Source: Legionellales bacterium
GTDB taxonomy: Bacteria > Pseudomonadota > Gammaproteobacteria > JAGOUN01
Reading direction: 5' to 3'
Assembly: GCA_027486005.1 (NCBI GenBank)
Contig: JAIXPZ010000042.1
Coordinates: forward strand, 2,894-66,893
Length of the DNA stretch: 64,000 nt
The notes under the pieces are model-generated. The model was not told where the DNA came from and made no database searches. It was given only the letters and a program-made list of their open reading frames with translations. Shown here in pieces: positions 5,036-52,346 of the stretch. Position 1 is the first letter of the stretch; every line of letters starts with the position of its first letter. A program made the translations under genes and the position numbers.

Positions 5036-5111
5036 TGTTAATTTCTTAAAAAGATTGAAGCTTAATATTAACAGAGTTAATAATAATTTTCACTCTTCAT
5101 CTTTTTCGAAA

Positions 5112-7362: not shown

Positions 7363-8814
7363 ATGGAAAAAATCAATTGGCAAACGCCGATACCTTTGAT
7401 TATCAGCTCTGAAAGCTCCACGCCTGCGCCCTACCCTATTGATTCTTTACCCAAAGAAATCAGTACCCCAGTATTAAGCTATCAAAGCTATGGGCAACAA
7501 CCCGTAGCACTCATTGCTTGCGCGGCACTTGCAAATATATCCCTCGCTTGCCAGACGTTAGCTAATGTTGCACGTGATAGTTTACTTAAAAGCCCTACAT
7601 CTGTTTATTTTTTGATCAGCTGCCAAAGTGGAGAGCGCAAATCGGTCGTCGACCATTCTTTTGGTCAAGGTATTCGAGAATGGCAAGCTAAAACACGTGA
7701 AAAGCTAATGCCAAAAGTGATTGAAGCAACTGCGATATATTATGCTTGGAAAGCTGAGCGCGACGGTATTTTAAAACAAATACGACATGCAAATTCTGAG
7801 ATTTCGGCTGCTGACCTTCAATACCAATTGACAATTTTAGCTATGCAAGAACCCGAGATTCCATTATTACCAGAACTCTTTTTTGAAGATGTAACGCAAG
7901 AAGCTTTGATACATAACTTATCGCACGGATGGCCAAGCAGTTCGTTATGGTCGGATGAAGGCGGCATTGTACTATCAGGTGGTGGAATGCAAGCCAACGC
8001 AACAAAGTTTATCTCAACACTAAATCGTCTTTGGGATGGCAATTCATTTAACACCCATCGTAAAACGACTAAAAACAACACTGTCAAAAATCGACGTTTC
8101 ACGATGAGCTTAATGCTCCAACCTTTTCTTTTAGAGCACTTACTTAAAAAACAGGACTCAGTTGCACGTCAGAGTGGCTTTTTAGCACGCACGCTCATTT
8201 CACAACCGGCAAGCTCTATGGGGCAACGTTATTATCAAAGCCCGCCAGCCTCATTATCAGAATTAGATGATTTTCATGCAAGAATTAATGCTTGTTTAGA
8301 TGCCACTTTAGATTTAGATCATCATGGCTGTCATAAAATTCCAGTGCTGGAGTTTTCACCAAAGGCGAAAGAAAGATGGATAAAATTTTTTAACAACATA
8401 GAATCTGGAATAAATAAAGAAAATCATTGGAAATCCATGCCCGATTTCGCTAGTAAAGCAGCGGAAAATGTTGCGCGCCTCAGCGCCCTCTTCCATCTAT
8501 TTCTTGGTAAAGCTGGCGATATCAGTGCCGAGTCTGTGGAGCAAGCTGCCAACATTGTCTACTGGCATTTATTAGAAGCGAAGCGAATTTTTACACCGAC
8601 AGAACATCAAGAAAAACATCAAGAAGCGCAAAAAATATTGAACTGGCTTAAAACAAGAAATGTTACTCAAACATCTTCACGGCAATTACAACAATATGGC
8701 AATTTCCGCGATAAATATAAACGTGAAAATGCCATATGTACGCTCATTGAACATAATTATTTGATTGAAACTATCGAAAATGACAAAAAAATATTATTTG
8801 TTAACCCGGAGTAA
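7363..8814 (+). CDS. Hypothetical protein, 483 aa; possibly DUF3987/YfjI-like, unverified
   Basis: Long complete ORF with typical codon usage, divergent from the 5112..7148 gene with a shared promoter region at 7150-7360. No catalytic motif recognised by eye. Confidence 0.45.
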   Translation: MEKINWQTPIPLIISSESSTPAPYPIDSLPKEISTPVLSYQSYGQQPVALIACAALANISLACQTLANVARDSLLKSPTSVYFLISCQSGERKSVVDHSFGQGIREWQAKTREKLMPKVIEATAIYYAWKAERDGILKQIRHANSEISAADLQYQLTILAMQEPEIPLLPELFFEDVTQEALIHNLSHGWPSSSLWSDEGGIVLSGGGMQANATKFISTLNRLWDGNSFNTHRKTTKNNTVKNRRFTMSLMLQPFLLEHLLKKQDSVARQSGFLARTLISQPASSMGQRYYQSPPASLSELDDFHARINACLDATLDLDHHGCHKIPVLEFSPKAKERWIKFFNNIESGINKENHWKSMPDFASKAAENVARLSALFHLFLGKAGDISAESVEQAANIVYWHLLEAKRIFTPTEHQEKHQEAQKILNWLKTRNVTQTSSRQLQQYGNFRDKYKRENAICTLIEHNYLIETIENDKKILFVNPE

Positions 8815-14900: not shown

Positions 14901-15221
14901 TAATAGGCTGCCCATATGATGAAGATCACGAGATTGGTTAGCTAAAGCTTTCCGTCCTGCTTGCCTACCTCCATATAAGTTTTCTGCATTTTTTATTGTG
15001 GCCTTAGGTGCCCAACGTTTAATTTGCTTCCTAGAAATCGTTTGCCCTTCTCTTAAAAGTTTAGGAATAGCATAATATTTAATTTTATTGCTTTCTTTTA
15101 TAGGAGTAACAAAATTTGAATTAAATGAATCGATAGTATCAGATGAAAGAAAATTTTTTTTAGTGGTTTTTGATTTTTCAGAAACAGAATTATTTTCTAC
15201 TTCGCTTATATTACGTTTCAT
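8958..15221 (-). CDS. Giant 2087-aa multidomain protein with Sel1/TPR-like repeats, extensive coiled coil and several TM segments; eukaryotic-like, effector-type
   Basis: Single uninterrupted 6.3-kb ORF. A Sel1-like repeat (GNPQANFYLGMLYVHEKNVESAKFYFQEAIAYGHPEAQNKL) lies near the C-terminus. Gly/Ala-rich hydrophobic stretches (AMAASAVASIAGAPITASGLFLAYIVSLPI; GGIASIISAPVVIGSGVALLASDVGW) and a C-terminal TM segment are present. Long K/E-rich coiled-coil regions run through the middle of the protein. Confidence 0.7.
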   Translation of the reverse strand: MKRNISEVENNSVSEKSKTTKKNFLSSDTIDSFNSNFVTPIKESNKIKYYAIPKLLREGQTISRKQIKRWAPKATIKNAENLYGGRQAGRKALANQSRDLHHMGSLLKQEATIWDNVETRLNVFFQGLKWYENTIGSGLNSIVDHITEGPFRVGELVLMPAMAASAVASIAGAPITASGLFLAYIVSLPISKNLTESLWNPTEECWKPQLREFLNSFFVQTPTPVDETQLPTLSTVNDDVKAVHDAAVGQSENTEKSAAPINTATLLLPQNSPKIDIDLIKKVLLRIAVDRKSQNPVHQENVCPENRRPTLAVFNDFHEKMQEKIVLDHLLSDPRRSYHHLMPNEPQWSIAPVIRPDGKPDFVVRSQSITGEMNVDIQVSASVVIGIIRLAQDFAAWYELNPEQKEMKRFFDAIDRGFKNPRQMERFIDTVLNSQKLNSDKKDMILKLGINNPEYVPEARSAFLSKHPDEDLKKDLKKGLNAYNEQSTLQAKQTGYFPDEKKSEHQAIKQAINSNNIQPMLQQFIKLQPFDSQNKAEIVEGRSKSAIQEHYRIQDFKKIANIFDQRKYYQETVKSKRKKDSIAKELDALYEKHKDTHPEMAGKYIPVLEKRTDTQSLYKLRDLYEQCGERIKFKNLTHELAKKFPNDQLVVEQSAYMYARDKDFVSAVGELKKLSNQSEFSVETKALLHNEIYHQLQVKNYPEASKLCKLFVAIASSAEEAYFYSLKDASISLEQGLEADAIKSLGELALKHQADATKISQLDELLFFAHRKQEEKTKISDDVAINNILERINLCSLENPDTILNILNYYSSKGSFQKAVDHYRKYSQEIQNYQRTPEDKVEDGSAYFKQCFAKELDQASKNNDFKKVAEIQKVLGEGNDLSEIRNLCKRINNDGLGCVGKGIEIIATKLKELIVPLIPMGKLRQASTWVCNRCISGGKLIYGGTQYQSILLDLESGLSFGTISSVLQVTLIFDEVVLGEMFGTGFNLSGNELISKAAFVLYQGTNLIQAGKDVSNIVNVISSLDVINVSTISDAIYSNFTLTGGATFVRLGAWTASAGITYLYGDDEYIIKQGKEQAEDDWITLSACVDGTGKLAGQAQEAAIVAKGAAYVSAAGVPWISTVVVTISGGIASIISAPVVIGSGVALLASDVGWSQSDRNMHNILLNGYMAINRGDQTRARAAWDKYQQRQNGRVYKYERDNELSYLINPIRTSPGDSPEDLEKWEKDLKKYKADNPSAQLVNQDLTICYYQRGKTEEALSEAKKMLEKEQTNVFALWIKGTILTQKSDLNEINEGRKILLAINADAPYFQQAQQALANSYIQEQNQLHQHKNQEITNIQKNVMAQPTQEKQLILIAQEIEAYKQYLGKVTELEKAYKKHAQLAGNKEVENNQATDTYDANKVDENPQIQYLKYLAITVELSQPSENTPWENLEKRIDQLIKLKPQADLKTALEHYLLICYMQQNKFKEVRPMISGIPIDNIEDQKKIELLVMQAMAEFHSEDSDGAIVTLNKALVNDVNNIRIHTFISRIYEFKLNKLHVDHQKYESEKIEALKTSEKKVQEQLKLLMEAESEIALAIKTSEEYLAYQENYLKEKQALEEKIKIHFAYLAQPETKVDELPNSSKKDDNTPAVTPEKILLRYTLILEQALPINYFICRAHTAQFGLDIFYWLNKLWVQNKQLDNNLKSWRHNADLALGFAELTLKVVERNLVLLVNTQASSAQAFSLYILDVIKSVLSVAKNFRQLCGKSEIGDYRLERYVSPCIEMLIAIGSILLDLKNNLTFERLMDARVHEQLLKIPEIHHYFLEPNPNEWGAYCRLFLGKFLENLGNRRGMALFSSREKIMSDLLNSMKDTVSYFKTMEDMLYSWEAYLKKYYINISIYSTMVCAVIPYNLFYINLLLFQRAAQIFLAAGDTVFNINLDRINCTKKYELKVAAVSGNPQANFYLGMLYVHEKNVESAKFYFQEAIAYGHPEAQNKLDELSAKEKSPATKDAKDKVALEVKKKNDTAEEGRWGHTIIYMAGMGLFALQPTIGLALFFTSTVSYLGYAEQFKLNESGGALRKVGFFQKIDFFAVNNVNLKGITNR

Positions 15222-24618: not shown

Positions 24619-25100
24619 TAAAAATTTCCCATTGCTGATAATGCATTAAAATTTTGTCTAAACATTTTGTTTGCCTTATTCTGTAACAGCATACACAGAG
24701 TACTATCAGATTTTATCTGTTCATTTTCTTCGTAAATCAAGAGCATTACCTACCGCCCTTCCCTACGCACAAAAAATCAAGTTAAACGTAAATTAACTAT
24801 TTTAAAACTGAGTTCTGAAATTCGCTTATCTGCACATTACATCGATAATTTTAAGAATGAATTATGTATGTCTATCACTGGCCAGTAAAGACAATAAACC
24901 CTATTTACAGCGATAATTAATGCTTGGGATCGCATATTGTTAAAAGTATATAACGCTCAATGCATGAGCACATTGCTGCGATGATAAATTGCACAAAAAT
25001 CTACCTAGACCAGTAAGCCTAGGGAAGCTCTGCAATAAAGTGCCCTCCCCTCATCTTTATCCCCAGAAACTGGGGATAACTTTTTTTGTGGAGTTTGTAA

Positions 25101-26951
25101 ATAAAAGGCTATGGGTGAGTAGACCAGGGGAATCTCACCCCTAGCCCCTCTTAGAACCGTACGTGACAGTCTCCCGTCATACGGCTCCCATTACTCAACC
25201 GGCGACGCTAGTCCATAGCGCCAATGCACAAAGAGTTGAGGATAGTGTTTGAATACTCTCCCCAAGTACCGTCTAGCTCTCTTTTTGCTTGCCTGTCCTG
25301 TATTGCTTGCATATTTGCGTTGCGCCCATCTTTGCAGATGTTTCTCTATCTGCACAAACGCCTCTGTCACTTCACTTCGATAAAATCTTCCATAATAATT
25401 CACCCATCCACTGACTCGCGGATTGGTTAATTTCGCCAGTTCCTTGAGTGACATACAGGTCTTTCGATGCAGACGCCAGCTGCGAATGGTTTGGCGAATG
25501 GCTGTCTTCGCTGCATTGCTTATAGCGGGAACAAAGCCGACAAAACCTTTGCCTTCTTTACTCATGACTAATCTTCTTCTGAAGGTGTAGCCTAAGAAAT
25601 CAAAGCTTCTGGGTATGTCTTCTTTTTCTTCTTTAGCTACGCCACAGTAAACAACTTTCGTTTTCTGCGGATGCAATTGCAGCTTGCACTGCGCCATTCG
25701 AGCCTCAATTTCTGCTTTGAGCTGTAATGCCTCATTTTGTGATGTGCAATGGACAATAATATCATCAGCATAACGCTCAAACTGAACGTTAGGGTGTTGT
25801 TTTCTTATCCATTTATCAAACACGTAGTGCAGAAAAATATTCGCTAACAATGGACTTACAACCCCGCCTTGAGGCGTGCCTGTTGTTCTGGGTTGCAATG
25901 ATCCATCGGCCAATTGAGCTGGAGCTCGTAGCCAATGTTTCACGTGCAACATTATCCATCGATCGATACTGTGCTTTTCTAGCGCCAATATGAGCAATTC
26001 ATGATCAATATTGTCAAAGAAACCCTTAATATCAAGATCGATCACCCAGTCACGCTTCCAGCAGCGCTGCCGACATTGTCCCACCGCATCGAGCGCTGAC
26101 TTGTTTGGTCGATAGCCATACGAGTCTTGATCAAAACGGGGTTCGAAGTGAGGCTCAAGGTGCATCGTGACCACCATTTGAGCAATACGGTCGGCGACCG
26201 TGGGTATTCCCAAATAGCGTTGTCCGCCGTCTTTCTTCGGTATCGCTACCGTTTTCACGGGCGGTGGAAAGTAACTGCCTGAGGACATTCGATTCCACAG
26301 TTTATACAGATTGTCTTTGAGTTTTACCTCAAAGTCTGCAATCGACTGGTTATCGACACCCGCCGCGCCTTGGTTACGCTTTACACGCAAATACGCTTGC
26401 CATACATCCTGTTTAGGAATAGCAAACGGTTTTGTTTTACTCAAAAGTTCCTCCCACCATTGGTTGACCTCTAACTAAAACGGAGTAACTCAACCCCTTC
26501 GCTCCATAGCCATTACAGCCACTTCAACACTACTACGGGTTGATCCGCCCCTGTGCTCTGCGTTGGTATTTTCTCTTGGCTTTTATACCTCGAAAGTTCC
26601 CTTATCATCAGAACGACAGGTTCCCGCAGTTCCATACTTAAGCCTAAAATAGGATCATGCTACCTCTACACCGGACACCGCCTATCCAATCATCAGGCCC
26701 CCGATAGACTTTATTCCTAGAGCCATAGAACTCACCCTAGTTTCGATGTCGTCCGATCCATTTCGACGTGTCAACGGTAGTTCACTTGCGTTCATCTTCC
26801 TATTTCGCACATGACTGTTAAAACAGCCTTTTCCTTATCGCTCACTACCAGGGCTCTTTACCCTAGCAGCATAAGGTTGTTTAAAGCCTACTCCTGAAAG
26901 TCGGCTTTGGTGGGCCTACCACCATCTTAAGTGCAGCTTGCTGCGGCACAC
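25101..26951 (-). mobile_element. Group II intron, about 1.85 kb, encoding an En-less RT/maturase; boundaries are approximate
   Basis: The minus-strand 5' end reads GTGTGCCGCAG (reverse complement of 26941-26951), matching the GUGYG consensus. Domain V reads GAGCCGTATGACGGGAGACTGTCACGTACGGTTC (reverse complement of 25154-25187). Domain VI reads GGCTAGGGGTGAG...CTCACCCATAGCC with a bulged A (about 25107-25150). The RT ORF sits in domain IV. Confidence 0.85.
25191..26444 (-). CDS. Group II intron-encoded reverse transcriptase/maturase, no endonuclease domain
   Basis: RT blocks are present (AIPKKDGGQRYLGIPTVADRIAQ and YADDIIVHC, the YADD active site). A maturase X-domain tail is present and there is no H-N-H motif. 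Confidence 0.9.
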   Translation of the reverse strand: MSKTKPFAIPKQDVWQAYLRVKRNQGAAGVDNQSIADFEVKLKDNLYKLWNRMSSGSYFPPPVKTVAIPKKDGGQRYLGIPTVADRIAQMVVTMHLEPHFEPRFDQDSYGYRPNKSALDAVGQCRQRCWKRDWVIDLDIKGFFDNIDHELLILALEKHSIDRWIMLHVKHWLRAPAQLADGSLQPRTTGTPQGGVVSPLLANIFLHYVFDKWIRKQHPNVQFERYADDIIVHCTSQNEALQLKAEIEARMAQCKLQLHPQKTKVVYCGVAKEEKEDIPRSFDFLGYTFRRRLVMSKEGKGFVGFVPAISNAAKTAIRQTIRSWRLHRKTCMSLKELAKLTNPRVSGWVNYYGRFYRSEVTEAFVQIEKHLQRWAQRKYASNTGQASKKRARRYLGRVFKHYPQLFVHWRYGLASPVE

Positions 26952-27049
26952 TTCCACGTGCAACACTCCAAAATTATACTCTTCTAAAGGTGCTCGGCTG
27001 TATTTTGAATATTATATTTTCATATAGTTCAAATTTTGTACTATATATC

Positions 27050-27822
27050 CATATAAATAGGTACATAAATAGGAACAATATAGGTACGTATATAGGAACA
27101 ATTAATAGTTGGATCGATTATGAAATAAATGAGCGAGGTTACTTCTACTCTGATAGCTTTCATCAACTGCGACAATTAAACCATTTTAGAACTTTTATAC
27201 CCTCCCCTCGCCTCTAAGCCAATTACAACCATGTTAATGATCGCTCTTAAAACATATAGCTTTAAAACGAATCATTATATAGGAACATTAATGGGAACAA
27301 ATATAAGTACATATATAGGTACAATAATTATTAGTACGCTGAAGATATTTTGATTATATACGCGAATATTCTGTTCCTATATTTGTACCTATTTAAAATA
27401 ATAAGTACAAATATGGGGACATATATAGGAACAACATAACAACAGAGATCTGGAGGCTATAAAAAAATAATATAGGAACAAAAATAGGTACAATGTATAT
27501 TTATCAAATATTAAATTTGTCGATTTAATATAGGTACAAATATAGGAACAAAATATTTTATTCCTTATTTTTAAATGTATTATGAAATACATTTGTGCTT
27601 TATAATTTTAAATTAATAAGAAAATACTACAGTTAAAATAGGTACAGTACAATACAATATAGGAACACAAATAGGATCAAATATAGAAACATATATGAGT
27701 ACATATATAGGAACAAATATTGGTGAGATTTTGACAAAGATCTGTTCCTATATTTGTACCTATATTAATAAATAGAAACAAATATAGGAACTTAATTGGG
27801 TACAAATATAGGAACAAAATAT
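27050..27822. repeat. Iteron array: about 30 copies of an 11-bp motif ATATAGGAACA / ATATAGGTACA in both orientations, often as 22-bp dimers (GGTACAAATATAGGAACAAA)
   Basis: Read directly, for example at 27056-27100, 27284-27330, 27375-27400 (inverted), 27404-27440, 27470-27500, 27526-27560, 27635-27725 and 27740-27822. It lies immediately upstream of parA. Confidence 0.85.
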
Positions 27823-27911
27823 AATGGTGATTTTTTACAGCTTTCAAATAATTAGCATCCTGTATTAATGGTTGCAATTTTTGCCATTCGGATAGAAAGC
27901 GACGTAACTCA

Positions 27912-29000
27912 TTGAAATTGTTAAAAAGACCATCTTCACCATCTTTTCTTAAAAAGATCTTGATATTATCACCATATTTGTTTAAGTTAAGGGTATCAGA
28001 ATATCAATTCCTTAAAAAACATGGGGCAATGATGGAAATCGATCCAAAAATTACTGCTGCGGAAATCGCTTTATATCTAAAAATGACTGTTCAAGCTATA
28101 CACAATAAAGTTAAGTCAAAAGGGCTGAAAGTAAAAAAAGCTCAAAATAAAGCCTACTTTGGACACGAGACGGCTAGGGTGATCATTAACCACAATGTTA
28201 ACCAATTGAAAATAGCTATTTCGGTTGTAAAGGGTGGGGTAGGGAAGACTACGTTAGCAGAAGCACTTGCCATTCGTGTAGCTCTATATGGTCTTCGTGT
28301 TCTTTGTATCGATGTGGATCAGCAAGCAAATCTAACTAAAGGCTTGGGCATGGACGAAAAAGCCAAGCACTGCCCAGTGATGATAGATCTTATCGAAGGT
28401 AAGGCAAAGGCTGAAGAAGCTATATTACAAGTAATGCCAGGTCTCGATCTGATTCCTAGTCGTTTAGATAATGTAACACTCGATGGTTATATGATGATTA
28501 ATCGAGTAAACCCAGAGAAAATTTTTAATAAAATTTTTGAGGACGTATTTAAAAACTACGACCTAGTTATCTTTGATTGTCCTCCTACATTAGGTTCTAC
28601 TGTATGCGCTGCGATGTTATGTGCCGATGTAGTAATTTCTCCATTAAATCCAGACGTGTATTCTTATGAAGGAATACAAATCATGGACAAGGAAATTAAA
28701 AATATTCGCGAACAATTTAGTAAAGACATTAATTGGAAAATTCTACTTAATAAATTTGATTCCAGAACTATTCTTTCTACCGGCTATATAAGTCAGCTAA
28801 TGCAAGATCCGGCATATGCTTCAAGATTGCTTGATAGTGTCATCAGAACAAGCCAAGAGTTTCCTAATATGAAACAAAAAGAAAAAACGATTTTTGATTC
28901 TCTTAAGAAATCTACGGCAAAAGAAGATATTGATGCTCTTGCAAAAGAAATAATTGAAATAATGAAGATTCACTCAAAAACAACCCAAGCAGCGAAGTAG
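27912..29000 (+). CDS. parA: ParA/Soj-family partition ATPase with an N-terminal HTH extension (type Ia-like); the likely start is ATG at 28029
   Basis: Deviant Walker A KGGVGKTT, plus Walker A' and B regions. The roughly 60-aa N-terminal extension (EIDPKITAAEIALYLKMTVQAIHNKV) is HTH-like. The track start at 27912 adds 39 low-complexity codons. ATGATG at 28029 is preceded by GGGG. Confidence 0.85.
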   Translation: MKLLKRPSSPSFLKKILILSPYLFKLRVSEYQFLKKHGAMMEIDPKITAAEIALYLKMTVQAIHNKVKSKGLKVKKAQNKAYFGHETARVIINHNVNQLKIAISVVKGGVGKTTLAEALAIRVALYGLRVLCIDVDQQANLTKGLGMDEKAKHCPVMIDLIEGKAKAEEAILQVMPGLDLIPSRLDNVTLDGYMMINRVNPEKIFNKIFEDVFKNYDLVIFDCPPTLGSTVCAAMLCADVVISPLNPDVYSYEGIQIMDKEIKNIREQFSKDINWKILLNKFDSRTILSTGYISQLMQDPAYASRLLDSVIRTSQEFPNMKQKEKTIFDSLKKSTAKEDIDALAKEIIEIMKIHSKTTQAAK

Positions 29001-29014
29001 GGTAGGGGACTTGT

Positions 29015-30271
29015 ATGACAACAGCAGCAGACCTTCTTAAAAAGGCTGAATCTAGAGGTAAAACTCCTCATGTATTTCAACCACAAAAAAGACGTGCATG
29101 GGATTATGCTGTTCAAGAAATAGCTATCAGTGAAGAAATTGTACAAAAAGAAAATAGGAACGAATCTGGGGACAATTGGGTACAGAAATCGGAACAAAGT
29201 GAGGACACAAATAGGAACAATAGGGTACAAATATCGGAACAAAGTAGGGACGAAAATGGGTACGAAAATAGGAACAATTTATCTCAAGAAACTAGTCAAG
29301 ACAAGAAGTTAGACGCTAGTAAATCTATCAATAAATTACCTACTTTACACGATGAAAATATCGAAGCTAATGTGCTAAAGGTATTGAGAAAAATAACAGG
29401 ACATCAACAACAAATTATGGGGCAAATTACAGCTCATATTAAAAGTTTAAAAGAGATAACAAATACAATTAATATACCTATTTCTACGCTATCAGAAAGA
29501 ATAAATGCAGATAAAGATATAACAAGAACTTCCATAAAAAGATTACAGCAAAAATCTATTTTATTAAAAGAATCTGGTAAGAAAGGGCGGCATGGCAGCA
29601 CGTATGTATTGGTTCCTGATTTTATTATAAAAGAGTGTCTAAATTTGTTTGACTGCGGGCCACTTTCTTTTGAAGAAACTGGGTACATAAATAGGAACGA
29701 ATATAGGAACGAATATAGGAACAATAATTCCCTATATAGTAGTAATAATATAAATACTACTACTAGGAATACGGATGACTTACCTGAAAATTGGTTGGCT
29801 ATAAATTTTGAACCGTTAACGGATATTGGATTTTCCCTTACTCAATTACGACAATTGTGTTTGAAATCACTCAATACTCCTGAGGTTGTTCAAGAATCGA
29901 TTAACCACTTTGCGTTTGGTATCGAAAACAATCCTAAGTTTCAGAAGTACTCAGAGCCATTGAACGTATTAATGGGGGTTTTACGCAAAGGAGACGCATG
30001 GTTTGAAAAAAATTATGTATCACCGCAGGAAAAAGCACAACGGCGATTACTTGAATTTAAAAAGGCAGAAGGTGAAAGGCTAAAAGCACTTGAAGAAGAA
30101 GCTTATAAAATTGCTCTAGAAGATTGGAAAGCAAGTTTGTCTGTTGAAGAAATCGAGAATATTGTGCCGAAGCAAGCAAAAAAGGGGGATATTACTCCCC
30201 ATAGTGTAAAAATGAGTGCGTACTTCAGAGAAAATATTTGGCCACTTAAAAAAAATGATTATTTGATTTAA
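29015..30271 (+). CDS. Winged-helix DNA-binding protein with iteron copies embedded in its coding sequence; candidate centromere-binding (ParB-analogue) or Rep-like iteron-binding protein
   Basis: HTH/wing-like segment NIPISTLSERINADKDITRTSIKRLQQKSILLKESGKKGRHGSTYVLVP. It sits downstream of parA and is translationally close (ATG 12 nt after the parA stop). The coding sequence carries iteron copies at 29150-29285 and 29686-29725, which encode NRNEYRNEYRNNN. Confidence 0.5.
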   Translation: MTTAADLLKKAESRGKTPHVFQPQKRRAWDYAVQEIAISEEIVQKENRNESGDNWVQKSEQSEDTNRNNRVQISEQSRDENGYENRNNLSQETSQDKKLDASKSINKLPTLHDENIEANVLKVLRKITGHQQQIMGQITAHIKSLKEITNTINIPISTLSERINADKDITRTSIKRLQQKSILLKESGKKGRHGSTYVLVPDFIIKECLNLFDCGPLSFEETGYINRNEYRNEYRNNNSLYSSNNINTTTRNTDDLPENWLAINFEPLTDIGFSLTQLRQLCLKSLNTPEVVQESINHFAFGIENNPKFQKYSEPLNVLMGVLRKGDAWFEKNYVSPQEKAQRRLLEFKKAEGERLKALEEEAYKIALEDWKASLSVEEIENIVPKQAKKGDITPHSVKMSAYFRENIWPLKKNDYLI

Positions 30272-30288
30272 TAAATTGGGAGATAAAT

Positions 30289-31056
30289 ATGAAAATCGGA
30301 ATTATTGCAGCTGTGCAAGATGAAATAAAAACCATACATGACGATATAAGTTTTGATAAAGAAAAAGTAGTTACTCATGCTGAACGGCAATATTATTTAG
30401 GTACTCATGAAGGAATGGAGCTAGTTCTTGTTTATTCGAGAGTTGGTAAGGTAGCCGCAAGTATGACTGCAACTACATTAATAGAAAAATTTAATGTTGA
30501 CCTCATCATATTTACAGGTTTGGCAGGTGCAGTTTCCAAAAATCTGAATAGAGGGGACATCATTTTATGTGATAAAACATATCAGCACGATTTTGATGGA
30601 CGACCTTTATGTGAGAATCAATTTGAGATACCTTTGACGAACAGAATATTTTTTGAAACTCCTCAAACTCAACTAAACATAGCCAAGAAAGGAATTGAAA
30701 ACTTTTTGGCTAATTTTAACAAATACGTTAATCCTATTGATTTGCAGAAACTAGAGGTTGATAAACCAAAACTATATGTTGGAGTAATAGCGACAGGGGA
30801 TCAATTTATACAAGATATTGATAACCAAAAAACTCTTTATATAAATAAAGTTGAAACGCTAGCTGTAGAAATGGAAGGTGCCGCTGTTGCTCAAGTTTGC
30901 TCAGAATATCAACTGCCATATATATTGGTCAGAATTATTTCTGATAAAGCTAATGATTCAGCGCACGTAAGTTTACAAGAATTTTCAGTAAAAGCGGCTA
31001 GCCATTATGCTAGTGGGATAGTTCAAGAGATACTTTCTTTATTGAAAACCAATTAA
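30289..31056 (+). CDS. MTA/SAH nucleosidase-like (PNP_UDP_1 family, Pfs/MtnN-like) nucleoside hydrolase
   Basis: N-terminus MKIGIIAAVQDEIKTI resembles the Pfs start MKIGIIGAMEEE. Glycine-rich GLAGAV and a C-terminal EMEGAAVAQVC segment are typical of the family. Confidence 0.65.
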   Translation: MKIGIIAAVQDEIKTIHDDISFDKEKVVTHAERQYYLGTHEGMELVLVYSRVGKVAASMTATTLIEKFNVDLIIFTGLAGAVSKNLNRGDIILCDKTYQHDFDGRPLCENQFEIPLTNRIFFETPQTQLNIAKKGIENFLANFNKYVNPIDLQKLEVDKPKLYVGVIATGDQFIQDIDNQKTLYINKVETLAVEMEGAAVAQVCSEYQLPYILVRIISDKANDSAHVSLQEFSVKAASHYASGIVQEILSLLKTN

Positions 31057-31084
31057 TTATTGAATAATTTAGAAATGGGGTTAA

Positions 31085-31774
31085 GTGATGAATTTACGTC
31101 GAGAGTACTCGTTAAATAGTAAGTTTCTTATAGCATTAGTAATGATATATATGGCATTAAATCTCACTTCTGATGCCATTGCATTTAGATTCTATAATAT
31201 TGGACAATTTGCTATATCAGCCTCTGGTTTAATATACCCCCTTACTTTTTTTATCACTGATAGCATAGCTGAAGTGTATGGGTATTCGATCGCACGTAAG
31301 GTGATTTGGATAGGATTGATTTGTGAATTCATGTTTGCAATTCTTATCGAGATACTAATTAGATTACCATTAACCTCAACAGTGGATAATGGCAATGCTT
31401 TTTTAATCACACTCGGTCCGTTACTACAATTTGTTTTATCATGTATAGTTGGCGATATTGTCGGTATTTTTCTAAATGTATACTGCTTAAGTAAATGGAA
31501 AGTCATTCTAAAAGGTAGATTTTTTGCCGCTCGAAGCATTATTTCTACTTGTTTGGGTGAACTCTCTATGACGTTTATTTGTATTCTTTTAGGGTTTTCA
31601 GGCTATAATAATTTAACTACTAATATAAAGGTTGCAATTACAACATACGCTCTTCTTGTTGCATATGCGGTGATATTGGTTTGGCCAACTTGGCTTTTCA
31701 CATCAATTTTGAAACGCGTAGAAAAATTAGATGTTTACGACATCAATACGAATTTTAACCCTTTTCGATTTTAA
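31085..31774 (+). CDS. YhhQ/DUF165 (VUT-family) membrane transporter, queuosine-precursor-transporter-like
   Basis: Multi-TM protein. LTFFITDSIAEVYGYSIARKVIWIGLI aligns with the E. coli YhhQ segment FLATDLTVRIFGAPLARRIIFAVMI. Confidence 0.6.
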   Translation: MMNLRREYSLNSKFLIALVMIYMALNLTSDAIAFRFYNIGQFAISASGLIYPLTFFITDSIAEVYGYSIARKVIWIGLICEFMFAILIEILIRLPLTSTVDNGNAFLITLGPLLQFVLSCIVGDIVGIFLNVYCLSKWKVILKGRFFAARSIISTCLGELSMTFICILLGFSGYNNLTTNIKVAITTYALLVAYAVILVWPTWLFTSILKRVEKLDVYDINTNFNPFRF

Positions 31775-31779
31775 ATAGA

Positions 31780-32430
31780 TTATGCTGCCTTTTTTTGAAG
31801 AAAGGAAAGTGAGCTTAGTATTCTATTCCAAGAAAAATTTTGGTCTAGCTGATCCCTTGAAAATGGCCCTAAGTCTAACTTAGAGGCAAAAGGTACAGCT
31901 AGCACTGGATTTTCAATATCAACATCCGATTTTTCTATTATGGTAATAGCTAATTTATTTTCTTCTGGAAATGAAGTTAAATGAAAAGTTCCTTTTGGAA
32001 CCTCATAAATTTCACCAGCAGAAAATTTACATGATGTTTCTATTTCAAGATTAACTCTTTGGATTTTAGAGTTGTTTAGTATAGAGCAATTTTGTTCTGT
32101 GCATTTTGCGTCTATCAATTGATAATCACCTGCTTCATTTAAAACTGCTTTATAAGTGGTATCTTGTATAGCTCCAGCAATAATTCTACTTTTTAAATGA
32201 AAAACATGTGTGTGCAGGGGCGGTTCAGACATAGATTTAGGTAAATCAGGAGCCCAAAAATGCAAAAACAATCCACCCTCAGAATTTTTTTGTCCATTCA
32301 AGGCAAGACGCATCATGCCAAGAGGTTGAGCTTGAATAGTTGCTCCATTTTCCTTGAGAAAATATAGTCTTTCATTTAGCCAGTTAATTATATCTATTAA
32401 ATCAGTTTTTTCATTAAAAATGTCTATCAT
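31780..32430 (-). CDS. Hypothetical protein, possibly cupin-like
   Basis: Complete ORF. His-rich segment LHTHVFHLKS and a beta-rich C-terminal region. No firm family assignment. Confidence 0.35.
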   Translation of the reverse strand: MIDIFNEKTDLIDIINWLNERLYFLKENGATIQAQPLGMMRLALNGQKNSEGGLFLHFWAPDLPKSMSEPPLHTHVFHLKSRIIAGAIQDTTYKAVLNEAGDYQLIDAKCTEQNCSILNNSKIQRVNLEIETSCKFSAGEIYEVPKGTFHLTSFPEENKLAITIIEKSDVDIENPVLAVPFASKLDLGPFSRDQLDQNFSWNRILSSLSFLQKKAA

Positions 32431-32457
32431 TAGAAATCCCCTTAAATTTAGCTGTTG

Positions 32458-32976
32458 TTACGTTTTATTCTGTACAAGATTTTTCAGTACTTCTTTTTTC
32501 TGCTTAAAATCTTCCGCTGAATTTTCTGTAGCAGCTAAATATCCGACTTCACGAGAATCTACTGGACACATGCTTTGTATAATATCCTTTTCATCCATTA
32601 AATCGAGCGCAGACTTTAGAATAATTTTTTTATCACCTTTTTTTCTGATAGAAAATATTATCTTATTATTTTCTTGAGATAGATGTTTGGCAAGAATAGT
32701 GTATTTTGGGCTATTGATTCCCATATAACCTAAATAAGTTAAAGTCCGCACATCTCTTGGCGAGAACATGTCAACGAATGAATCGTCTTCTAATATTTCT
32801 TCTGGATAAACATCAAAAGCAACATTTTTGTTTATTATCTGTATTATAGCGATAAATTCATTTAGCTCTGTCTTACTGATTTCAATAACCCTGAGTCGTG
32901 GCCTATATACTTCTTGAGTCATGCTTGATTTCAATTCATGAATATAGTTCTTTATTTTTTCAATAGACTTAGCCAT
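32458..32976 (-). CDS. Hypothetical protein
   Basis: Complete 172-aa ORF co-oriented with neighbours. No recognised motif. Confidence 0.35.
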   Translation of the reverse strand: MAKSIEKIKNYIHELKSSMTQEVYRPRLRVIEISKTELNEFIAIIQIINKNVAFDVYPEEILEDDSFVDMFSPRDVRTLTYLGYMGINSPKYTILAKHLSQENNKIIFSIRKKGDKKIILKSALDLMDEKDIIQSMCPVDSREVGYLAATENSAEDFKQKKEVLKNLVQNKT

Positions 32977-32996
32977 TTAAGCTTTCCCCCAATTTC

Positions 32997-33662
32997 CTAT
33001 TTAAAGCAATTTCTTGATTCAACTAATGTCGCTAAAATCCTATCATCGTGATCCAATAACCTCATTGGAAAACTAGCTACGTTAGGATTTAATGGTTTCA
33101 AATATTTATGTTCACCATCGTCAATTAATTGTCTAAGTACTGCTTTTGAAGCTATGTTTACTAAAATATAGCTTCTATCTTGATATTTTGCATCTGGATC
33201 AAAAATTAATATGCAATTATAAGAAAAAATAGGTTCCATTGAGGTGTCAGGCATAATTAATGCAAAAGCATTGTCACTGATATGATTGCCGACGGTAATT
33301 TTGCCTAACTCTAAAGTTTGAGCGGAGGTACCTCCAGAAAAGCTACTCCATGACAATATGGGAATGGCTTTTATATGGTGTGACATTAGTTCATGAGTAT
33401 CATCGGTTTTATCGTCCGAAGCCGACTCTTCTATATTAATAGGCATAGGCTTTTCACCTACTAATTGGTCCATATCGATAGAAAAAAAATCAGCGATTGG
33501 TTGTAAAGAGGTGGCGTAGGGCCTTGTGGATTTGCCAGTTACTAACCTATGAATCGTTGGAGCAGGCAAATCAACTGCTCTTGCTAAATCTACAGGCTTA
33601 ATGTCTTTATCAAACAATAGTTTTTTAAGAATTTTTGCGAGATCTGGATATTTTTTAGACAT
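32997..33662 (-). CDS. CI/LexA-like repressor: XRE-family HTH + S24 peptidase domain
   Basis: N-terminal HTH (IKPVDLARAVDLPAPTIHRLVTGKS). The C-terminal S24 region has the catalytic Ser in MPDTSMEPIF and a Lys in NIASKAVLRQL. It is divergent from the T4SS-side genes. Confidence 0.7.
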   Translation of the reverse strand: MSKKYPDLAKILKKLLFDKDIKPVDLARAVDLPAPTIHRLVTGKSTRPYATSLQPIADFFSIDMDQLVGEKPMPINIEESASDDKTDDTHELMSHHIKAIPILSWSSFSGGTSAQTLELGKITVGNHISDNAFALIMPDTSMEPIFSYNCILIFDPDAKYQDRSYILVNIASKAVLRQLIDDGEHKYLKPLNPNVASFPMRLLDHDDRILATLVESRNCFK

Positions 33663-50318: not shown

Positions 50319-52346
50319 ATGTCACGTTATGCGTTTGAAAATTTATTCCGAGAACCGATAGAACTTTATGGCGGTGTGCTGTTATTGATCATCGGATTGT
50401 TCCTATATTTGTTCCCATATCTGTTCCTATTATTAGGCGTTACAAAGTGGGTGGCTTTGGCGCTGGTATTGGGATTAGCATTGAAACATATTACTAGCGG
50501 CCTGCGTGTTTTTCGCTTCAAACGCAGGCTTTTACAAATGAATGCTTTTTCAATGAGCACACAAGCGCTACCTGCTAATCGCCATCAACTTTATTTAGGA
50601 GAAGGGTTCCAGTGGCAGCCCATACACCGTCAGCGATTACACCTATTAAATCAACTGGATAACCAAGGGTATTTGCAACCTTCAAAGCTTTATCAGTGGA
50701 TCGATACAGCAGCACGTCGTCATCCTGAAGGTCGATTAAATCAGTGGCGTACATTACCGCTTTCACCGTTTAAACCTATGCCTGATATTGGAGGAAAACC
50801 GTCGTTGCACGGTGTTGGAAGTGATACTGAACAACCTGTGTATCTACATCAGCATAATCGCAATAGTCACATGGTTGTGTTTGGGATGACGCGTGTCGGC
50901 AAAACACGATTGATGTGCAATATCGTTGCGCAAGATATCCGTAACGGTGAGGCTGTTTTAATCATTGATCCTAAAAGCGATCTTGAGTTGCTGCAGGATA
51001 TTGTGGCTGCTTGTAAGGTGGCTGGACGTGATAAAGATTTAATGATTTTACACGCTGGGATGCCAGAGTTTTCTGCCAAATATAATCCATTGAATAATTT
51101 TGTGAACATCAGTGAAATTGCGACCCGTGTGACAGGCGCTATTTCGGCCGAAGGAGAAGGCCAACAGTTTAAAGATTTTGCGTGGAAGTTTTTAAATATC
51201 GTATCTACCTGTTTAATGGAGATGGGTGAGCCAATTAGCTACGCCACGCTTGCCTTTTATGTGACACGCCCAAAACAGCTTCTTTATCAGTACGGCGAAA
51301 AAATGTTTCCGATGAAAGACCCTCGCTATCAAGAAAAAATTGAACAAATACTGGCAGAAAATAGTAATAAGATTGATAAGAAAGGTAATAAAAAAGGTGA
51401 TATGACGCAACAAGAAGCGGTACAAGTGTATGTCGAAAATTATATTCAAGAAACGCTCGAAAGAGGAGACCGTAGTATTTATGACGCTATCATTGTCGAT
51501 CTGCATTATGCCGCGAATCTAGGCGAAGAATACTATTCTAAAATTACCGCAAGCTTAGGTCCTGTTTTTGATAAAATTAATAAGACATCTGCGCGCGATG
51601 TATTTTCTTGGGAAGGTGAAAGCACACTTCCTGTTATTCGACTTGAAGAAGTCATTCGCGATAAAAAAGTCGTATACATGGGGCTCGATGCACTTTCTAA
51701 CGAAGCGATGGCCAAAGCTATTAGTCAAGCCTTAATTGCCGATTTAGTAACACTTATCGGTAAGCTCTATAAAACTGCACCTGATAAAAAATTTCCATTA
51801 TGCTTACACGTTGACGAATTTAGTAACATGGTCAGAGATGAGTTTATTAATCTTTTAAATAAAGCCGGTGGTGCAGGGATTAAAGTTGCGGCTTATACAC
51901 AAACCGTCAATGATTTGGGTGCGGTTTTTGGAACCAATAAAGATAAGCCTAAAATGCTTCTGGGTAACTTTGGTACGATGATTATGCTGCGTGTTGCTAA
52001 TGACGACACTGCAGAAGTTTTTGTGAATTGCTTAGAGCGAACTCAAACACGTAGTGCCGTACCTTACACCACGACATCCGATAAACCAGACGCACAGGAT
52101 GGCGATTTTTTCACGACGCAAAATACCGATTCAGTGAGTGAAGAATATCAATCGATCATTGAGGTCAATCATTTATTTTCATTGCCTAAGGGACAAGCGT
52201 TTGTGCTGACTGACGGCGGGAAACTTTACAAGATTCGAATTCCGCTTCCTGAAGCTCAAAAAGGGCTGCCGAATAACTTTGAAGAAATTCTAAAAAAAAT
52301 TAATACGAAGTCAGGCTTAAATCAGTATGAAGAGGTGAAATTATGA
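50319..52346 (+). CDS. traD: Type IV coupling protein TraD (conjugative coupling factor, SXT/TOL-like)
   Basis: Two N-terminal TM helices. Walker A GMTRVGKT. Walker B/DE region (CLHVDEFSNM). 675 aa. Confidence 0.85.
   Translation: MSRYAFENLFREPIELYGGVLLLIIGLFLYLFPYLFLLLGVTKWVALALVLGLALKHITSGLRVFRFKRRLLQMNAFSMSTQALPANRHQLYLGEGFQWQPIHRQRLHLLNQLDNQGYLQPSKLYQWIDTAARRHPEGRLNQWRTLPLSPFKPMPDIGGKPSLHGVGSDTEQPVYLHQHNRNSHMVVFGMTRVGKTRLMCNIVAQDIRNGEAVLIIDPKSDLELLQDIVAACKVAGRDKDLMILHAGMPEFSAKYNPLNNFVNISEIATRVTGAISAEGEGQQFKDFAWKFLNIVSTCLMEMGEPISYATLAFYVTRPKQLLYQYGEKMFPMKDPRYQEKIEQILAENSNKIDKKGNKKGDMTQQEAVQVYVENYIQETLERGDRSIYDAIIVDLHYAANLGEEYYSKITASLGPVFDKINKTSARDVFSWEGESTLPVIRLEEVIRDKKVVYMGLDALSNEAMAKAISQALIADLVTLIGKLYKTAPDKKFPLCLHVDEFSNMVRDEFINLLNKAGGAGIKVAAYTQTVNDLGAVFGTNKDKPKMLLGNFGTMIMLRVANDDTAEVFVNCLERTQTRSAVPYTTTSDKPDAQDGDFFTTQNTDSVSEEYQSIIEVNHLFSLPKGQAFVLTDGGKLYKIRIPLPEAQKGLPNNFEEILKKINTKSGLNQYEEVKL

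What the first reader, a model, noticed from the sequence alone, without database searches (positions are those of the whole stretch)
27050..27822. Large iteron array (about 30 copies of ATATAGG[A/T]ACA in both orientations) upstream of a type-Ia-like parA
Dense, alternating GGTACA/GGAACA 11-bp units, often paired into 22-bp dimers and including inverted copies (27375-27400, 27740-27765), fill about 770 bp of non-coding DNA. This is the architecture of a plasmid centromere (parS/sopC-like) or an iteron-type replication origin, not a CRISPR array: there are no regular spacers. On an element that also carries a GI-type T4SS it suggests an autonomously maintained episomal stage. The spurious ORFs 27389..27592 and 27677..27877 are read through these repeats.
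Basis: seen in the sequence. Interest (0 to 1): 0.6.

Follow-up and report, generated by a model that had tools for sequence, protein, structure and literature searches.

The report
Iteron array of a ParA–winged-helix plasmid cassette
The repeats are real binding sites for the uncharacterised DNA-binding protein encoded just after parA, and with more copies hidden inside that protein's own gene they mark a widespread, unnamed plasmid-maintenance module that is the only visible replication/partition system on several Legionella and Piscirickettsia plasmids.

Summary
Between 27054 and 27817 there are 20 exact ATAGGWAC cores, or 25 units by a weight matrix, against about 0.5 in shuffles. The period is 12 bp, not 11, and four copies are inverted.

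The array is one of three clusters. About 11 units lie at 29151-29277 and 3 at 29688-29724, inside the downstream 418-aa ORF. There they encode its two disordered linkers, on either side of a winged helix.

This layout recurs across a large unannotated family (722 cluster representatives at E<=1e-30). In most of about 45 related loci (Legionellales, Piscirickettsia and others), each locus has its own core on a shared TAG-N3-4-WCA frame. That core repeats upstream of parA and in both linkers, usually read in two or three frames.

The core varies with the winged helix, not with ParA's conserved N-terminal HTH.

Complete plasmids of L. pneumophila, L. israelensis, Cardinium and P. salmonis carry this pair and no recognisable Rep or ParB.

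Best reading: the iterons are bound by the winged-helix protein. They act as centromere and operator for ParA and probably also as origin or copy-control sites. Function is inferred, not shown.

I rate it a new variant of a known kind, moderately interesting.

The parts
27054..27817 (.). Upstream iteron array of 25 matrix-scored 12-bp units (consensus AATATAGGWACA), 21 direct and 4 inverted. Clusters lie at 27054-27101, 27276-27324, 27371-27395 (inverted pair), 27398-27434, 27469-27493, 27527-27551, 27635-27647, 27656-27716, 27742-27766 (inverted pair) and 27769-27817.
27550..27640 (.). Iteron-free stretch of >=90% A+T inside the array, flanked by iteron pairs and holding two imperfect 25-nt direct repeats (27566-27590 and 27603-27627). 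It is a candidate unwinding element if the origin lies here.
   Evidence: the role is inferred
28029..29000 (+). parA. It is a Walker-type partition ATPase (AAA_31/CbiA) with a roughly 62-aa N-terminal HTH-like extension. The mechanical ORF starts at 27912; the likely start is ATG 28029 or 28032 (MMEIDPK).
29015..30271 (+). Gene for a 418-aa protein, the proposed iteron binder. Its layout is: a conserved K/R-rich N-terminal peptide (1-31), disordered linker 1 (33-111), a winged helix (114-211), disordered linker 2 (223-253), and a conserved helical C-domain (258-416). It has no Pfam or NCBIfam family.
29151..29277 (+). Intragenic iteron cluster 1. About 11 contiguous 11-12-bp units (TAGGAACA, TGGGGACA, TGGGTACA, TCGGAACA and others), all direct, encode linker 1. 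They are read in two frames (NRN versus SEQ).
29688..29724 (+). Intragenic iteron cluster 2. Three perfect-phase 12-bp units encode NRNEYRNEYRNN in linker 2, between the winged helix and the C-domain.
50397..50433 (-). Outlying cluster of three tandem 12-bp iterons inside the N-terminal membrane-segment coding part of GI-type traD. It may be an extra binding site; its function is unknown.

Best explanation
The array is the promoter-proximal member of three clusters of 12-bp iterons. They are recognised by the winged-helix protein encoded at 29015-30271. Together with ParA (28029-29000), this makes a self-contained two-gene plasmid-maintenance cassette.

Proposed mechanism:
1. Winged-helix dimers bind tandem units spaced one helical turn apart and coat the array. 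They also coat the two clusters inside their own gene.
2. This nucleoprotein complex is the partition complex. ParA is engaged through the protein's conserved K/R-rich N-terminal peptide, which is tethered by a disordered linker. Binding next to the operon start also autoregulates parA and the winged-helix gene.
3. The same protein-iteron pair most likely supplies replication initiation and copy control. The origin would be either at the A+T-rich gap in the array (27550-27640) or at the intragenic iterons, as in RepA_N plasmids.

Shown here: the repeats, their tripartite placement, its conservation with locus-specific cores, DNA-level selection on the intragenic copies, and the absence of any other recognisable Rep or ParB on complete plasmids. 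Inferred: binding, partition, autoregulation and initiation.
For: - Enrichment is far above chance.
- Placement is tripartite. In most of 36 full-length loci, exact 7-mer seeds are concentrated upstream of parA, in linker-1 DNA and in linker-2 DNA. They are almost absent from the parA body, the winged-helix and C-domain coding DNA, the downstream DNA and the rest of each locus.
- Each locus has its own core: ATAGGWACA, AGATAACA, GGTAACA, GATATC, AGRGTTCA, GAGACAA, CGAACACA, CCGTTAGCA and others.
- Intragenic copies are read in 2-3 reading frames in 24 of 28 loci and almost never inverted. Selection is therefore on the DNA, not the peptide. They fall in the two segments with pLDDT <50.
- Core classes track the recognition helix and wing of the winged helix. 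ParA's HTH (S.QAVHKQLK.K.I.C.K.GNK) is nearly identical across loci with at least 5 different cores. The correlation with iteron similarity is 0.18 for the winged-helix DNA-binding segment and 0.08 for the ParA HTH.
- parA sits immediately upstream in nearly all loci. The gap is 14 bp in the window.
- The N-terminal motif has F21, R27, W29 and D30 conserved at >=90%.
- Several complete plasmids carry the pair and no recognisable Rep or ParB: L. pneumophila 33.4 kb, L. israelensis 47 kb, Cardinium 33.8 kb, and P. salmonis 18.9 and 31.9 kb.
- A published analysis could not find a rep gene or oriV for P. salmonis pPSLF89-2 and -3 (PMC6963756).
- Where the weak domain matches of the winged helix carry an annotation more specific than a generic regulatory wHTH, they are mostly replication-related: HTH_36, Phage_rep_O, DnaD_N, DnaD-like loader, replication initiation protein.
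- There is a precedent for an origin inside a dispensable linker-coding part of a winged-helix initiator gene: pSK41 (PMC5703833).
Against: - There is no experimental evidence for binding, partition or replication.
- No DnaA box lies in or beside the array.
- The GC-skew minimum at about 27.5 kb cannot be separated from the switch in gene orientation. Only 3 of 7 against-the-grain genes fit a replication-driven skew.
- GATC enrichment is marginal (6 against 2.4 expected, P=0.04).
- The C-terminal domain has no structural neighbour in the PDB or BFVD, so nothing links it to helicase or primase recruitment.
- The replication-type domain hits are weak, and generic MarR/TrmB matches are more numerous.
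- The covariation statistics are weak and confounded by phylogeny.
- One protein acting as both initiator and ParA adaptor is unusual.
- The plasmid gene tables are incomplete, and small unannotated ORFs or RNA-primed origins cannot be excluded.
- L039 and L047 lack an upstream array, and P. salmonis L001 lost its array to an IS30. The upstream array itself may therefore be dispensable.
Confidence: 0.55

Rival explanations
1. Pure replication reading. The 418-aa protein is only a Rep initiator, and the iterons are origin plus copy-control (handcuffing) sites. ParA either works with an unidentified partner or binds DNA through its own HTH.
For: - It is the only initiator candidate on complete plasmids.
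- Members give weak HTH_36, Phage_rep_O, DnaD_N and DnaD-like hits.
- Iterons inside linker-coding DNA recall pSK41.
- An A+T-rich gap is flanked by iterons.
- Intragenic copies are all direct.
Against: - parA is coupled to this gene in nearly every locus, and no other centromere-binding protein is present on the 33-kb plasmid.
- Arrays of 15-45 units with an 11-12-bp period upstream of an operon look more like parC/tubC centromeres than classical origins with 3-7 iterons of 17-22 bp.
- There is no DnaA box.
Confidence: 0.2
2. Pure partition reading. The 418-aa protein is only a non-canonical ParB analogue, and the iterons are a split centromere plus operator. Replication is provided by something not recognised here, such as a small ORF, an RNA-primed origin or a host initiator.
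For: - The operon is coupled to parA.
- A K/R-rich N-terminal peptide sits on a disordered tether.
- Long phased arrays lie upstream of the operon.
- Binding sites inside the binder's own gene are known for chromosomal ParB/parS (established knowledge).
Against: Four independent complete plasmids from three genera would then have no recognisable replicon (PMC6963756). The domain order winged helix, iteron-encoded linker, conserved C-domain mirrors RepA_N initiators.
Confidence: 0.2
3. The array is an operator bound by ParA's own N-terminal HTH, as in type Ia autoregulation. The downstream protein is unrelated to the repeats.
For: ParA has an HTH-like extension. Type Ia ParAs repress their own promoters (established knowledge).
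Against: The ParA HTH is almost invariant across loci whose iteron cores differ completely. The same core recurs inside the downstream gene, in both linkers, in most loci.
Confidence: 0.04
4. The array is a non-functional A+T-rich minisatellite, or a relic of slippage or duplication.
For: The region is 26% G+C and repeat-prone. Some relatives carry perfectly homogenised arrays, for example 42 x 12 bp in L019.
Against: The same placement, with locus-specific cores, is conserved across about 45 loci in distant hosts. The ATAGGWAC core is identical between the window and P. salmonis plasmids although the proteins are only 44-49% identical.
Confidence: 0.01

Closest known systems
RepA_N replicons of Firmicutes (pSK41, pAD1/pCF10)
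   Same: A winged-helix DNA-binding domain is joined to a C-terminal domain by a linker whose coding DNA carries the protein's own binding repeats. In pSK41 that DNA is the origin and the linker peptide is dispensable (PMC5703833). pAD1-type plasmids also pair the initiator with a ParA-like gene and flanking short iterons (own knowledge). Some family members give weak DnaD_N or DnaD-like hits.
   Different: No RepA_N (PF06970) match was listed, and no PDB RepA_N chain was found by profile. Here there are two iteron-encoded linkers plus a large upstream array. The gene follows parA in one operon and there is no separate centromere-binding protein. The hosts are Gram-negative Legionellales and Piscirickettsia, and the C-domain fold is unassigned.
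Type II/III centromeres: R1 parC (ParR) and tubC (TubR, a winged helix)
   Same: Tandem 11-12-bp iterons, one per helical turn, sit upstream of the partition operon. They are coated by a small site-specific adaptor that also autoregulates (own knowledge). The phasing is seen here.
   Different: The motor here is a Walker ParA, not actin-like ParM or tubulin-like TubZ. The adaptor is 418 aa with extra domains, and there are additional sites inside its own gene.
Type Ia ParABS (P1 parABS, F sopABC)
   Same: ParA has an N-terminal HTH extension, followed directly by the gene of the presumed centromere-binding protein. Repeated sites lie next to the operon.
   Different: The second gene has no ParB/Spo0J domain. 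The ParA extension is shorter (about 62 aa), and its scores against the SopA and RepA models are far below cut-off. The centromere is upstream and intragenic rather than downstream.
repABC operons of Alphaproteobacteria
   Same: The partition ATPase and the initiator are co-transcribed, and the origin lies inside the initiator gene (own knowledge).
   Different: There is no RepB/ParB gene and no RepC homology. Here short iterons, not an A+T-rich block, are the intragenic element.
Classical iteron plasmids (F RepE, pSC101 RepA, R6K pi, RK2 TrfA)
   Same: Direct repeats are bound by a plasmid-encoded winged-helix protein. Extra repeat clusters are available for handcuffing and autoregulation, and an A+T-rich stretch adjoins the repeats.
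   Different: Units are 12 bp, not 17-22 bp. The protein has a single winged helix and no Rep_3 or TrfA match. There are no DnaA boxes, and copy numbers per array are far higher.

Membership tests
Classical iteron-type origin (Rep_3/RepE/pi/TrfA class) | Initiator with a Rep_3, TrfA or dual winged-helix domain | tested here: not met
   No Pfam or NCBIfam family matches the 418-aa protein. The model shows a single winged helix.
Classical iteron-type origin (Rep_3/RepE/pi/TrfA class) | 3-7 direct iterons of 17-22 bp next to an A+T-rich unwinding element and DnaA boxes | tested here: not met
   Units are 12 bp and number 25 or more. An A+T-rich gap is present at 27550-27640. No DnaA box lies in 27000-27900.
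Classical iteron-type origin (Rep_3/RepE/pi/TrfA class) | The region supports autonomous replication when the initiator is supplied | not testable with these tools
   This needs a mini-replicon assay.
RepA_N replicons | RepA_N domain (PF06970) in the initiator | tested here: not met
   RepA_N was not among the families listed for the 57 members (25 of 64 matched families shown). The replication-type matches were weak DnaD_N, HTH_36 and Phage_rep_O hits. The profile search of PDB sequences returned no RepA chain.
RepA_N replicons | The protein's binding repeats lie inside its own gene, in DNA encoding a dispensable linker | tested here: met
   Iterons fall in the two segments with pLDDT <50 and are read in 2-3 frames in 24 of 28 loci. 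Whether the linker is dispensable was not tested.
Type Ia ParABS | Walker ParA with an N-terminal HTH extension | tested here: met
   AAA_31 at 4e-40. Walker A follows about 62 residues that align as an HTH. A homologue gives HTH_17 at 0.003.
Type Ia ParABS | Partner protein with a ParB/Spo0J N-terminal domain and HTH | tested here: not met
   There is no ParB-type match in Pfam, NCBIfam or PDB sequences.
Type Ia ParABS | Repeated centromere sites adjacent to the operon, bound by the partner | tested here: inconclusive
   The sites are present and co-vary with the partner's DNA-binding segment. Binding was not tested.
parC/tubC-type centromere (types II and III) | Phased 11-12-bp iterons upstream of the operon | tested here: met
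   The period is 12 bp here and 11-12 bp in relatives, at -200 to -750 from parA.
parC/tubC-type centromere (types II and III) | The motor is ParM (actin-like) or TubZ (tubulin-like) | tested here: not met
   The motor is a Walker ParA.
CRISPR array | Constant repeats separated by unique spacers of near-constant length | tested here: not met
   Units are tandem at 12 bp or separated by irregular gaps of 20-176 bp, and some are inverted.
GI-type (MPF_G) conjugative element, as context | PFL_4706-type TraC and the TIGR0374x-0375x protein set | tested here: met
   TIGR03744 scores 780 bits against a cut-off of 520. TIGR03755, 03749, 03756 and 03759 are also above their cut-offs.

The most novel reading that the evidence does not exclude
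One protein does both jobs. The winged-helix protein would be both the replication initiator and the ParA-activating centromere adaptor, using one iteron vocabulary at three sites. Two of those sites are written into the DNA that encodes its own disordered linkers. The cis element, the specificity determinant and the trans factor would then co-evolve as a single unit. This two-gene cassette would be the missing replicon of many Legionella, Piscirickettsia, Rickettsiella and Cardinium plasmids.
Probability: 0.35. Interest if true: 0.75.

Novelty: new variant of a known kind. Interest (0 to 1): 0.6.

Why it matters
Plasmids of Piscirickettsia salmonis, an important salmon pathogen, have no identified rep gene or origin. 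That includes pPSLF89-2 and -3, whose size classes (about 33 and 51.5 kb) match records carrying this cassette (PMC6963756). The Legionella plasmids that carry the cassette got no replicon type from MOB-suite.

A defined parA/winged-helix/iteron cassette gives a concrete, testable candidate for their replication and segregation. It also offers a basis for incompatibility typing by iteron core, and a starting point for native shuttle vectors in Legionellales.

More generally, it is a clear case of cis-acting DNA sites embedded in coding DNA and tolerated because the encoded peptide is a disordered linker. It extends to Gram-negative bacteria a design so far described for RepA_N plasmids of Firmicutes.

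On this element it suggests that a GI-type conjugative island can persist as a low-copy episome.

Tried and rejected
- **GC skew as origin evidence.** The V-shaped minimum at 27-27.5 kb coincides with the switch in gene orientation. Genes lying against the grain do not separate the two causes, with 3 of 7 fitting.
- **DnaA boxes.** None lie in the array.
- **GATC clustering.** Only marginal.
- **Promoter and terminator scan of 26900-28100.** Uninformative: one minus-strand hit, fewer than in shuffles.
- **Near-identity DNA search of 26900-30300 against plasmids.** No match.
- **Small circular contigs carrying only the cassette.** The 4-8-kb contigs fetched are fragments cut at genes. The 8.6-kb P. 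salmonis record is linear.
- **Coxiella QpH1 as a relative.** It has separate ParB, ParA, RepB and RepA genes, and no Coxiella record appeared among the homologue hits.
- **Literature search for a description of this family.** Nothing found in the held library.
- **Automated covariation statistics.** They point in the expected direction but are weak. The argument therefore rests on the hand-read alignments.

Full report
**1. The observation**

Reading 26700-28300 shows the repeats directly.
- Tandem Repeats Finder reports six short arrays between 27053 and 27823. All have period 12 and consensus AATATAGGAACA.
- The core ATAGGWAC occurs 29 times in the window against 2.2 expected from shuffles (largest 6). 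Twenty of these are in 27057-27815, four of them on the minus strand.
- A 13-nt weight matrix built from those 20 finds 25 units at >=8 bits in 27040-27830. Shuffles of the same A+T-rich region give a mean of 0.45.
- The period is 12 bp rather than 11.
- The units come in about ten clusters separated by unique spacers, so they do not fill the 770 bp.
- The inverted pairs are at 27371-27395 and 27742-27766.
- There is no CRISPR-like repeat/spacer regularity.

**2. The surroundings**

- To the left lie a type I restriction-modification system on the minus strand (hsdR, hsdS, hsdM) and a group II intron on the minus strand, about 25105-26985. Rfam RF01999 and RF00029 match it, and its reverse-transcriptase/maturase ORF is 25191-26444. 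The intron ends about 70 bp from the first iteron.
- To the right is parA. The mechanical ORF starts at 27912; the likely start is 28029. It matches AAA_31 at 4e-40 and has about 62 N-terminal residues that align as an HTH.
- Fourteen bases later starts a 418-aa ORF (29015-30271) with no Pfam or NCBIfam family.
- Then come an MTA/SAH nucleosidase, a queuosine-precursor transporter and an S24/HTH repressor.
- Next is a T4SS that is indeed GI-type/MPF_G: TIGR03744 at 780 bits, plus TIGR03755, 03749, 03756 and 03759 above their cut-offs (03746 and 03752 match just below theirs). A SXT/TOL-type TraD matches too. Topoisomerase III follows.
- A tyrosine integrase lies at 2765-4009.

**3. More copies of the repeat**

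The same motif recurs inside the 418-aa ORF.
- 29151-29277 is a run of about 11 phased 11-12-bp units, all direct (TAGGAACA, TGGGGACA, TGGGTACA, TCGGAACA and others).
- 29688-29724 holds three perfect-phase units translated as NRNEYRNEYRNN.
- Three further tandem units lie on the minus strand at 50397-50433, inside the membrane-segment coding part of traD.

**4. The protein**

An AlphaFold2 model built on 57 homologues gives this layout:

| Residues | Feature |
|---|---|
| 1-31 | short N-terminal helix |
| 33-111 | disordered segment (pLDDT <50) |
| 114-211 | confident winged helix |
| 223-253 | second disordered segment |
| 258-416 | confident helical C-domain |

- The two disordered segments are exactly the parts encoded by the intragenic iterons.
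- The winged helix matches generic winged-helix regulators by Foldseek (CodY, MarR, HlyU) and by PDB profile (2d1h, 3r0a at E about 0.01).
- Individual family members hit MarR/TrmB, and more tellingly HTH_36, Phage_rep_O and DnaD_N. In PHROGs they hit a DnaD-like helicase loader (1.9e-5), 'replication initiation protein' and 'O-like'. These hits are weak.
- The C-domain was modelled alone at pLDDT 92. It has no significant neighbour in the PDB or BFVD.
- The N-terminus carries a conserved K/R-rich motif, MPxxxDxLKKxxxKKFxKKxYRxWD. F21, R27, W29 and D30 are conserved at >=90%.

**5. The family**

- The protein has 218 relatives at E<=0.001 in the word-indexed search. They come from Piscirickettsia salmonis plasmids, Legionella, Fluoribacter, Rickettsiella/Aquirickettsiella and many MAGs, and almost all are named 'hypothetical'.
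- An exhaustive profile search finds 722 cluster representatives at E<=1e-30 and 1451 at E<=1e-10.
- In the plasmid collection it is on 92 records: 77 Piscirickettsia, 12 Legionella, 2 Candidatus and 1 Cysteiniphilum. Eighty are non-mobilizable and 11 conjugative.

**6. Comparative anatomy**

I fetched 45 genomic loci and several complete plasmids, and asked which 7-8-mers are most repeated around the gene.
- In most loci a locus-specific word is concentrated in three places: a few hundred bp upstream of parA (often 15-45 units at -200 to -750), linker-1 DNA, and linker-2 DNA.
- The same word is essentially absent from the parA body, the winged-helix and C-domain coding DNA, the downstream DNA and the rest of the locus.
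- The word differs between loci:

| Iteron core | Loci |
|---|---|
| ATAGGWACA | window, P. salmonis L002, L003, L004, L009 |
| AGATAACA / GGTAACA | L012, L013, L026, L029, L030, L035 |
| GATATC | L015, L019, L021 |
| AGRGTTCA | L005, L006, L028 |
| GAGACAA | L017, L040 |
| CGAACACA | L038 |
| AACGGAACACAA | L048 |
| CCGTTAGCA | L032, L033, L046 |

- Read in the gene's orientation, most cores fit a common frame: TAG, 3-4 variable bases, then WCA.
- The period is 11-12 bp throughout.
- In 24 of 28 loci with at least four intragenic copies, the motif is read in two or three different frames, giving unrelated peptides. It is almost never inverted. What is conserved is therefore DNA, not peptide.
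- The ATAGGWAC core is identical between the window and P. salmonis plasmids, although the proteins are only 44-49% identical.

**7. Which protein reads the iterons?**

- When the winged-helix segment is sorted against the iteron core, recognition helix and wing group with the core:

| Recognition helix and wing | Core |
|---|---|
| TRTSIKRL...GERGRHG | ATAGGWACA |
| GSAKTSLxRL...GKxxKGGH | AGATAACA / GGTAACA |
| GTxKTTxKRL...GKNAKGGY | GATATC |
| NGRETAxKRL...GKTGxNG | AGRGTTCA |

- ParA's N-terminal HTH is almost the same sequence (S.QAVHKQLK.K.I.C.K.GNK) across loci with at least five different cores.
- A crude pairwise statistic agrees but is weak. The Spearman correlation with iteron similarity is 0.18 for the winged-helix DNA-binding segment and 0.08 for the ParA HTH. 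Partial correlations are 0.19-0.22 against -0.04 to 0.12.
- I conclude that the 418-aa protein, not ParA, is the sequence-specific binder. This is inference.

**8. What the cassette does**

*Partition.*
- parA sits directly upstream of the gene in nearly all loci.
- The protein has the layout of a ParA adaptor: a basic N-terminal peptide on a flexible tether, a site-specific DNA-binding domain, and a helical C-domain with a long coiled helix.
- Long arrays with one unit per helical turn upstream of the operon resemble R1 parC and tubC (own knowledge).

*Replication.*
- The 33.4-kb circular conjugative plasmid of L. pneumophila C9_S carries parA, the homologue, F-type tra genes, a relaxase, a resolvase and a few small ORFs. 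No ORF of 120 aa or more has a Rep-like domain.
- The same holds for annotated genes of the L. israelensis 47-kb plasmid, the Cardinium 33.8-kb plasmid, and the P. salmonis 18.9- and 31.9-kb plasmids.
- The published analysis of P. salmonis LF-89 plasmids states that no rep gene or oriV could be found for pPSLF89-2 and -3 (PMC6963756). LF-89's 51.5-kb plasmid is among the records carrying the homologue.
- The order winged helix, iteron-encoded linker, conserved C-domain mirrors pSK41. There the Rep boxes, which are the origin, lie centrally within rep, and the linker they encode is dispensable (PMC5703833).
- Within the window's array there is an iteron-free stretch of >=90% A+T (27550-27640), flanked by iteron pairs. 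It could serve as an unwinding element.

*Against an origin in the array.*
- There are no DnaA boxes.
- The GC-skew minimum is not separable from gene orientation.
- L039 and L047 have only intragenic iterons.
- P. salmonis L001 lost its upstream array to an IS30 yet is deposited as a complete plasmid.

*Conclusion.* On small low-copy plasmids both partition and initiation are needed, and only this pair is available. A dual role is therefore the most economical reading, but it is not shown.

**9. Comparison with known systems**

- It works like a hybrid of a parC/tubC-type centromere and a RepA_N-type replicon, driven by a Walker ParA that resembles type Ia in carrying an HTH extension.
- It is not a member of RepA_N, Rep_3/TrfA, ParB/Spo0J or repABC by any sequence test I could run.
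- Coxiella QpH1, the best-studied Legionellales plasmid, uses separate ParB, ParA, RepB and RepA genes and 21-bp iteron-like repeats, and is unrelated.
- I found no paper describing this family in the held library.

**10. Verdict**

- The added value is that the array belongs to a conserved, unannotated, widespread two-gene maintenance cassette. Its iterons are partly written into the disordered linkers of their own binding protein.
- The kind is known (iteron-based plasmid maintenance), but the variant is new.
- The functional assignments need the experiments listed.

Noticed in passing
window 25105-26985 (- strand): A group II intron ends about 70 bp from the first iteron. Rfam RF01999 matches 26810-26923 and RF00029 matches 25114-25189. 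The RT/maturase ORF is 25191-26444 and no endonuclease domain was detected. Its orientation would place it in the lagging-strand template of a fork leaving the array leftwards, which suits endonuclease-less introns. I did not test this idea.
   Followed up: partly
window 50397-50433 (- strand), inside traD 50319-52346: Three tandem 12-bp iterons (matrix scores 20.0, 11.5 and 12.1 bits) are embedded in DNA coding the membrane segment LFLYLFPYLFLL of the GI-type coupling protein. They could be an extra binding site linking maintenance and transfer, or a coincidence of a repetitive peptide.
   Followed up: partly
window 30289-33662; L049 9471-11902; L002 4641-7095: A queuosine-precursor transporter follows the cassette: directly in the L. 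pneumophila plasmid, after an MTA/SAH nucleosidase in the window. An S24/HTH repressor lies nearby in both. The L. pneumophila plasmid also has a SAM methyltransferase beside the transporter. The P. salmonis plasmid L002 carries the same transporter, methyltransferase and HTH-regulator trio, about 6 kb past the cassette across the record start. This looks like a conserved cargo neighbourhood.
   Followed up: partly
window 29774-30268 (residues 254-418 of the 418-aa protein): The conserved helical C-terminal domain is modelled at pLDDT 92. It has no significant structural neighbour in the PDB (best E=6) or BFVD (best E=0.11).
   Followed up: yes
L001 (NZ_CP050943.1) 4881-6140: In this 18.9-kb P. 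salmonis plasmid an IS30 element abuts the parA promoter region and the upstream iteron array is absent. Six intragenic iterons at 45-bp spacing remain. parA also looks frameshifted in this record and in L002, possibly from sequencing error.
   Followed up: partly
L019 about 2793-3104 bp before the gene end; L016; L007; L021: Some relatives carry long, almost perfectly homogenised upstream arrays: 42 x 12 bp in Legionella sp. km772, 19 x 11 bp in L016 and 13 x 12 bp in L007. Others (L029, L030, L026) have a block of inverted units followed by a block of direct units.
   Followed up: partly
L039 and L047: Two loci with more than 4.5 kb of upstream sequence show the iteron only inside the gene (linkers 1 and 2), with no upstream array.
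   Followed up: partly
window 27925-27972: Short direct repeats (CCATCTT x2, CACCAT x3) lie between the last iteron and the parA start. They could be the operator of ParA's conserved N-terminal HTH.
   Followed up: no
window 25057-25090: A plus-strand hairpin (TTATCCCCAG/CTGGGGATAA) followed by a T-run lies beside the 3' end of the intron. No obvious plus-strand gene is there for it to terminate.
   Followed up: no
window 8958-15221 (- strand) and 7363-8814 (+): A 2087-aa ORF that I did not examine lies next to a DUF3987 protein, left of the type I restriction-modification genes.
   Followed up: no
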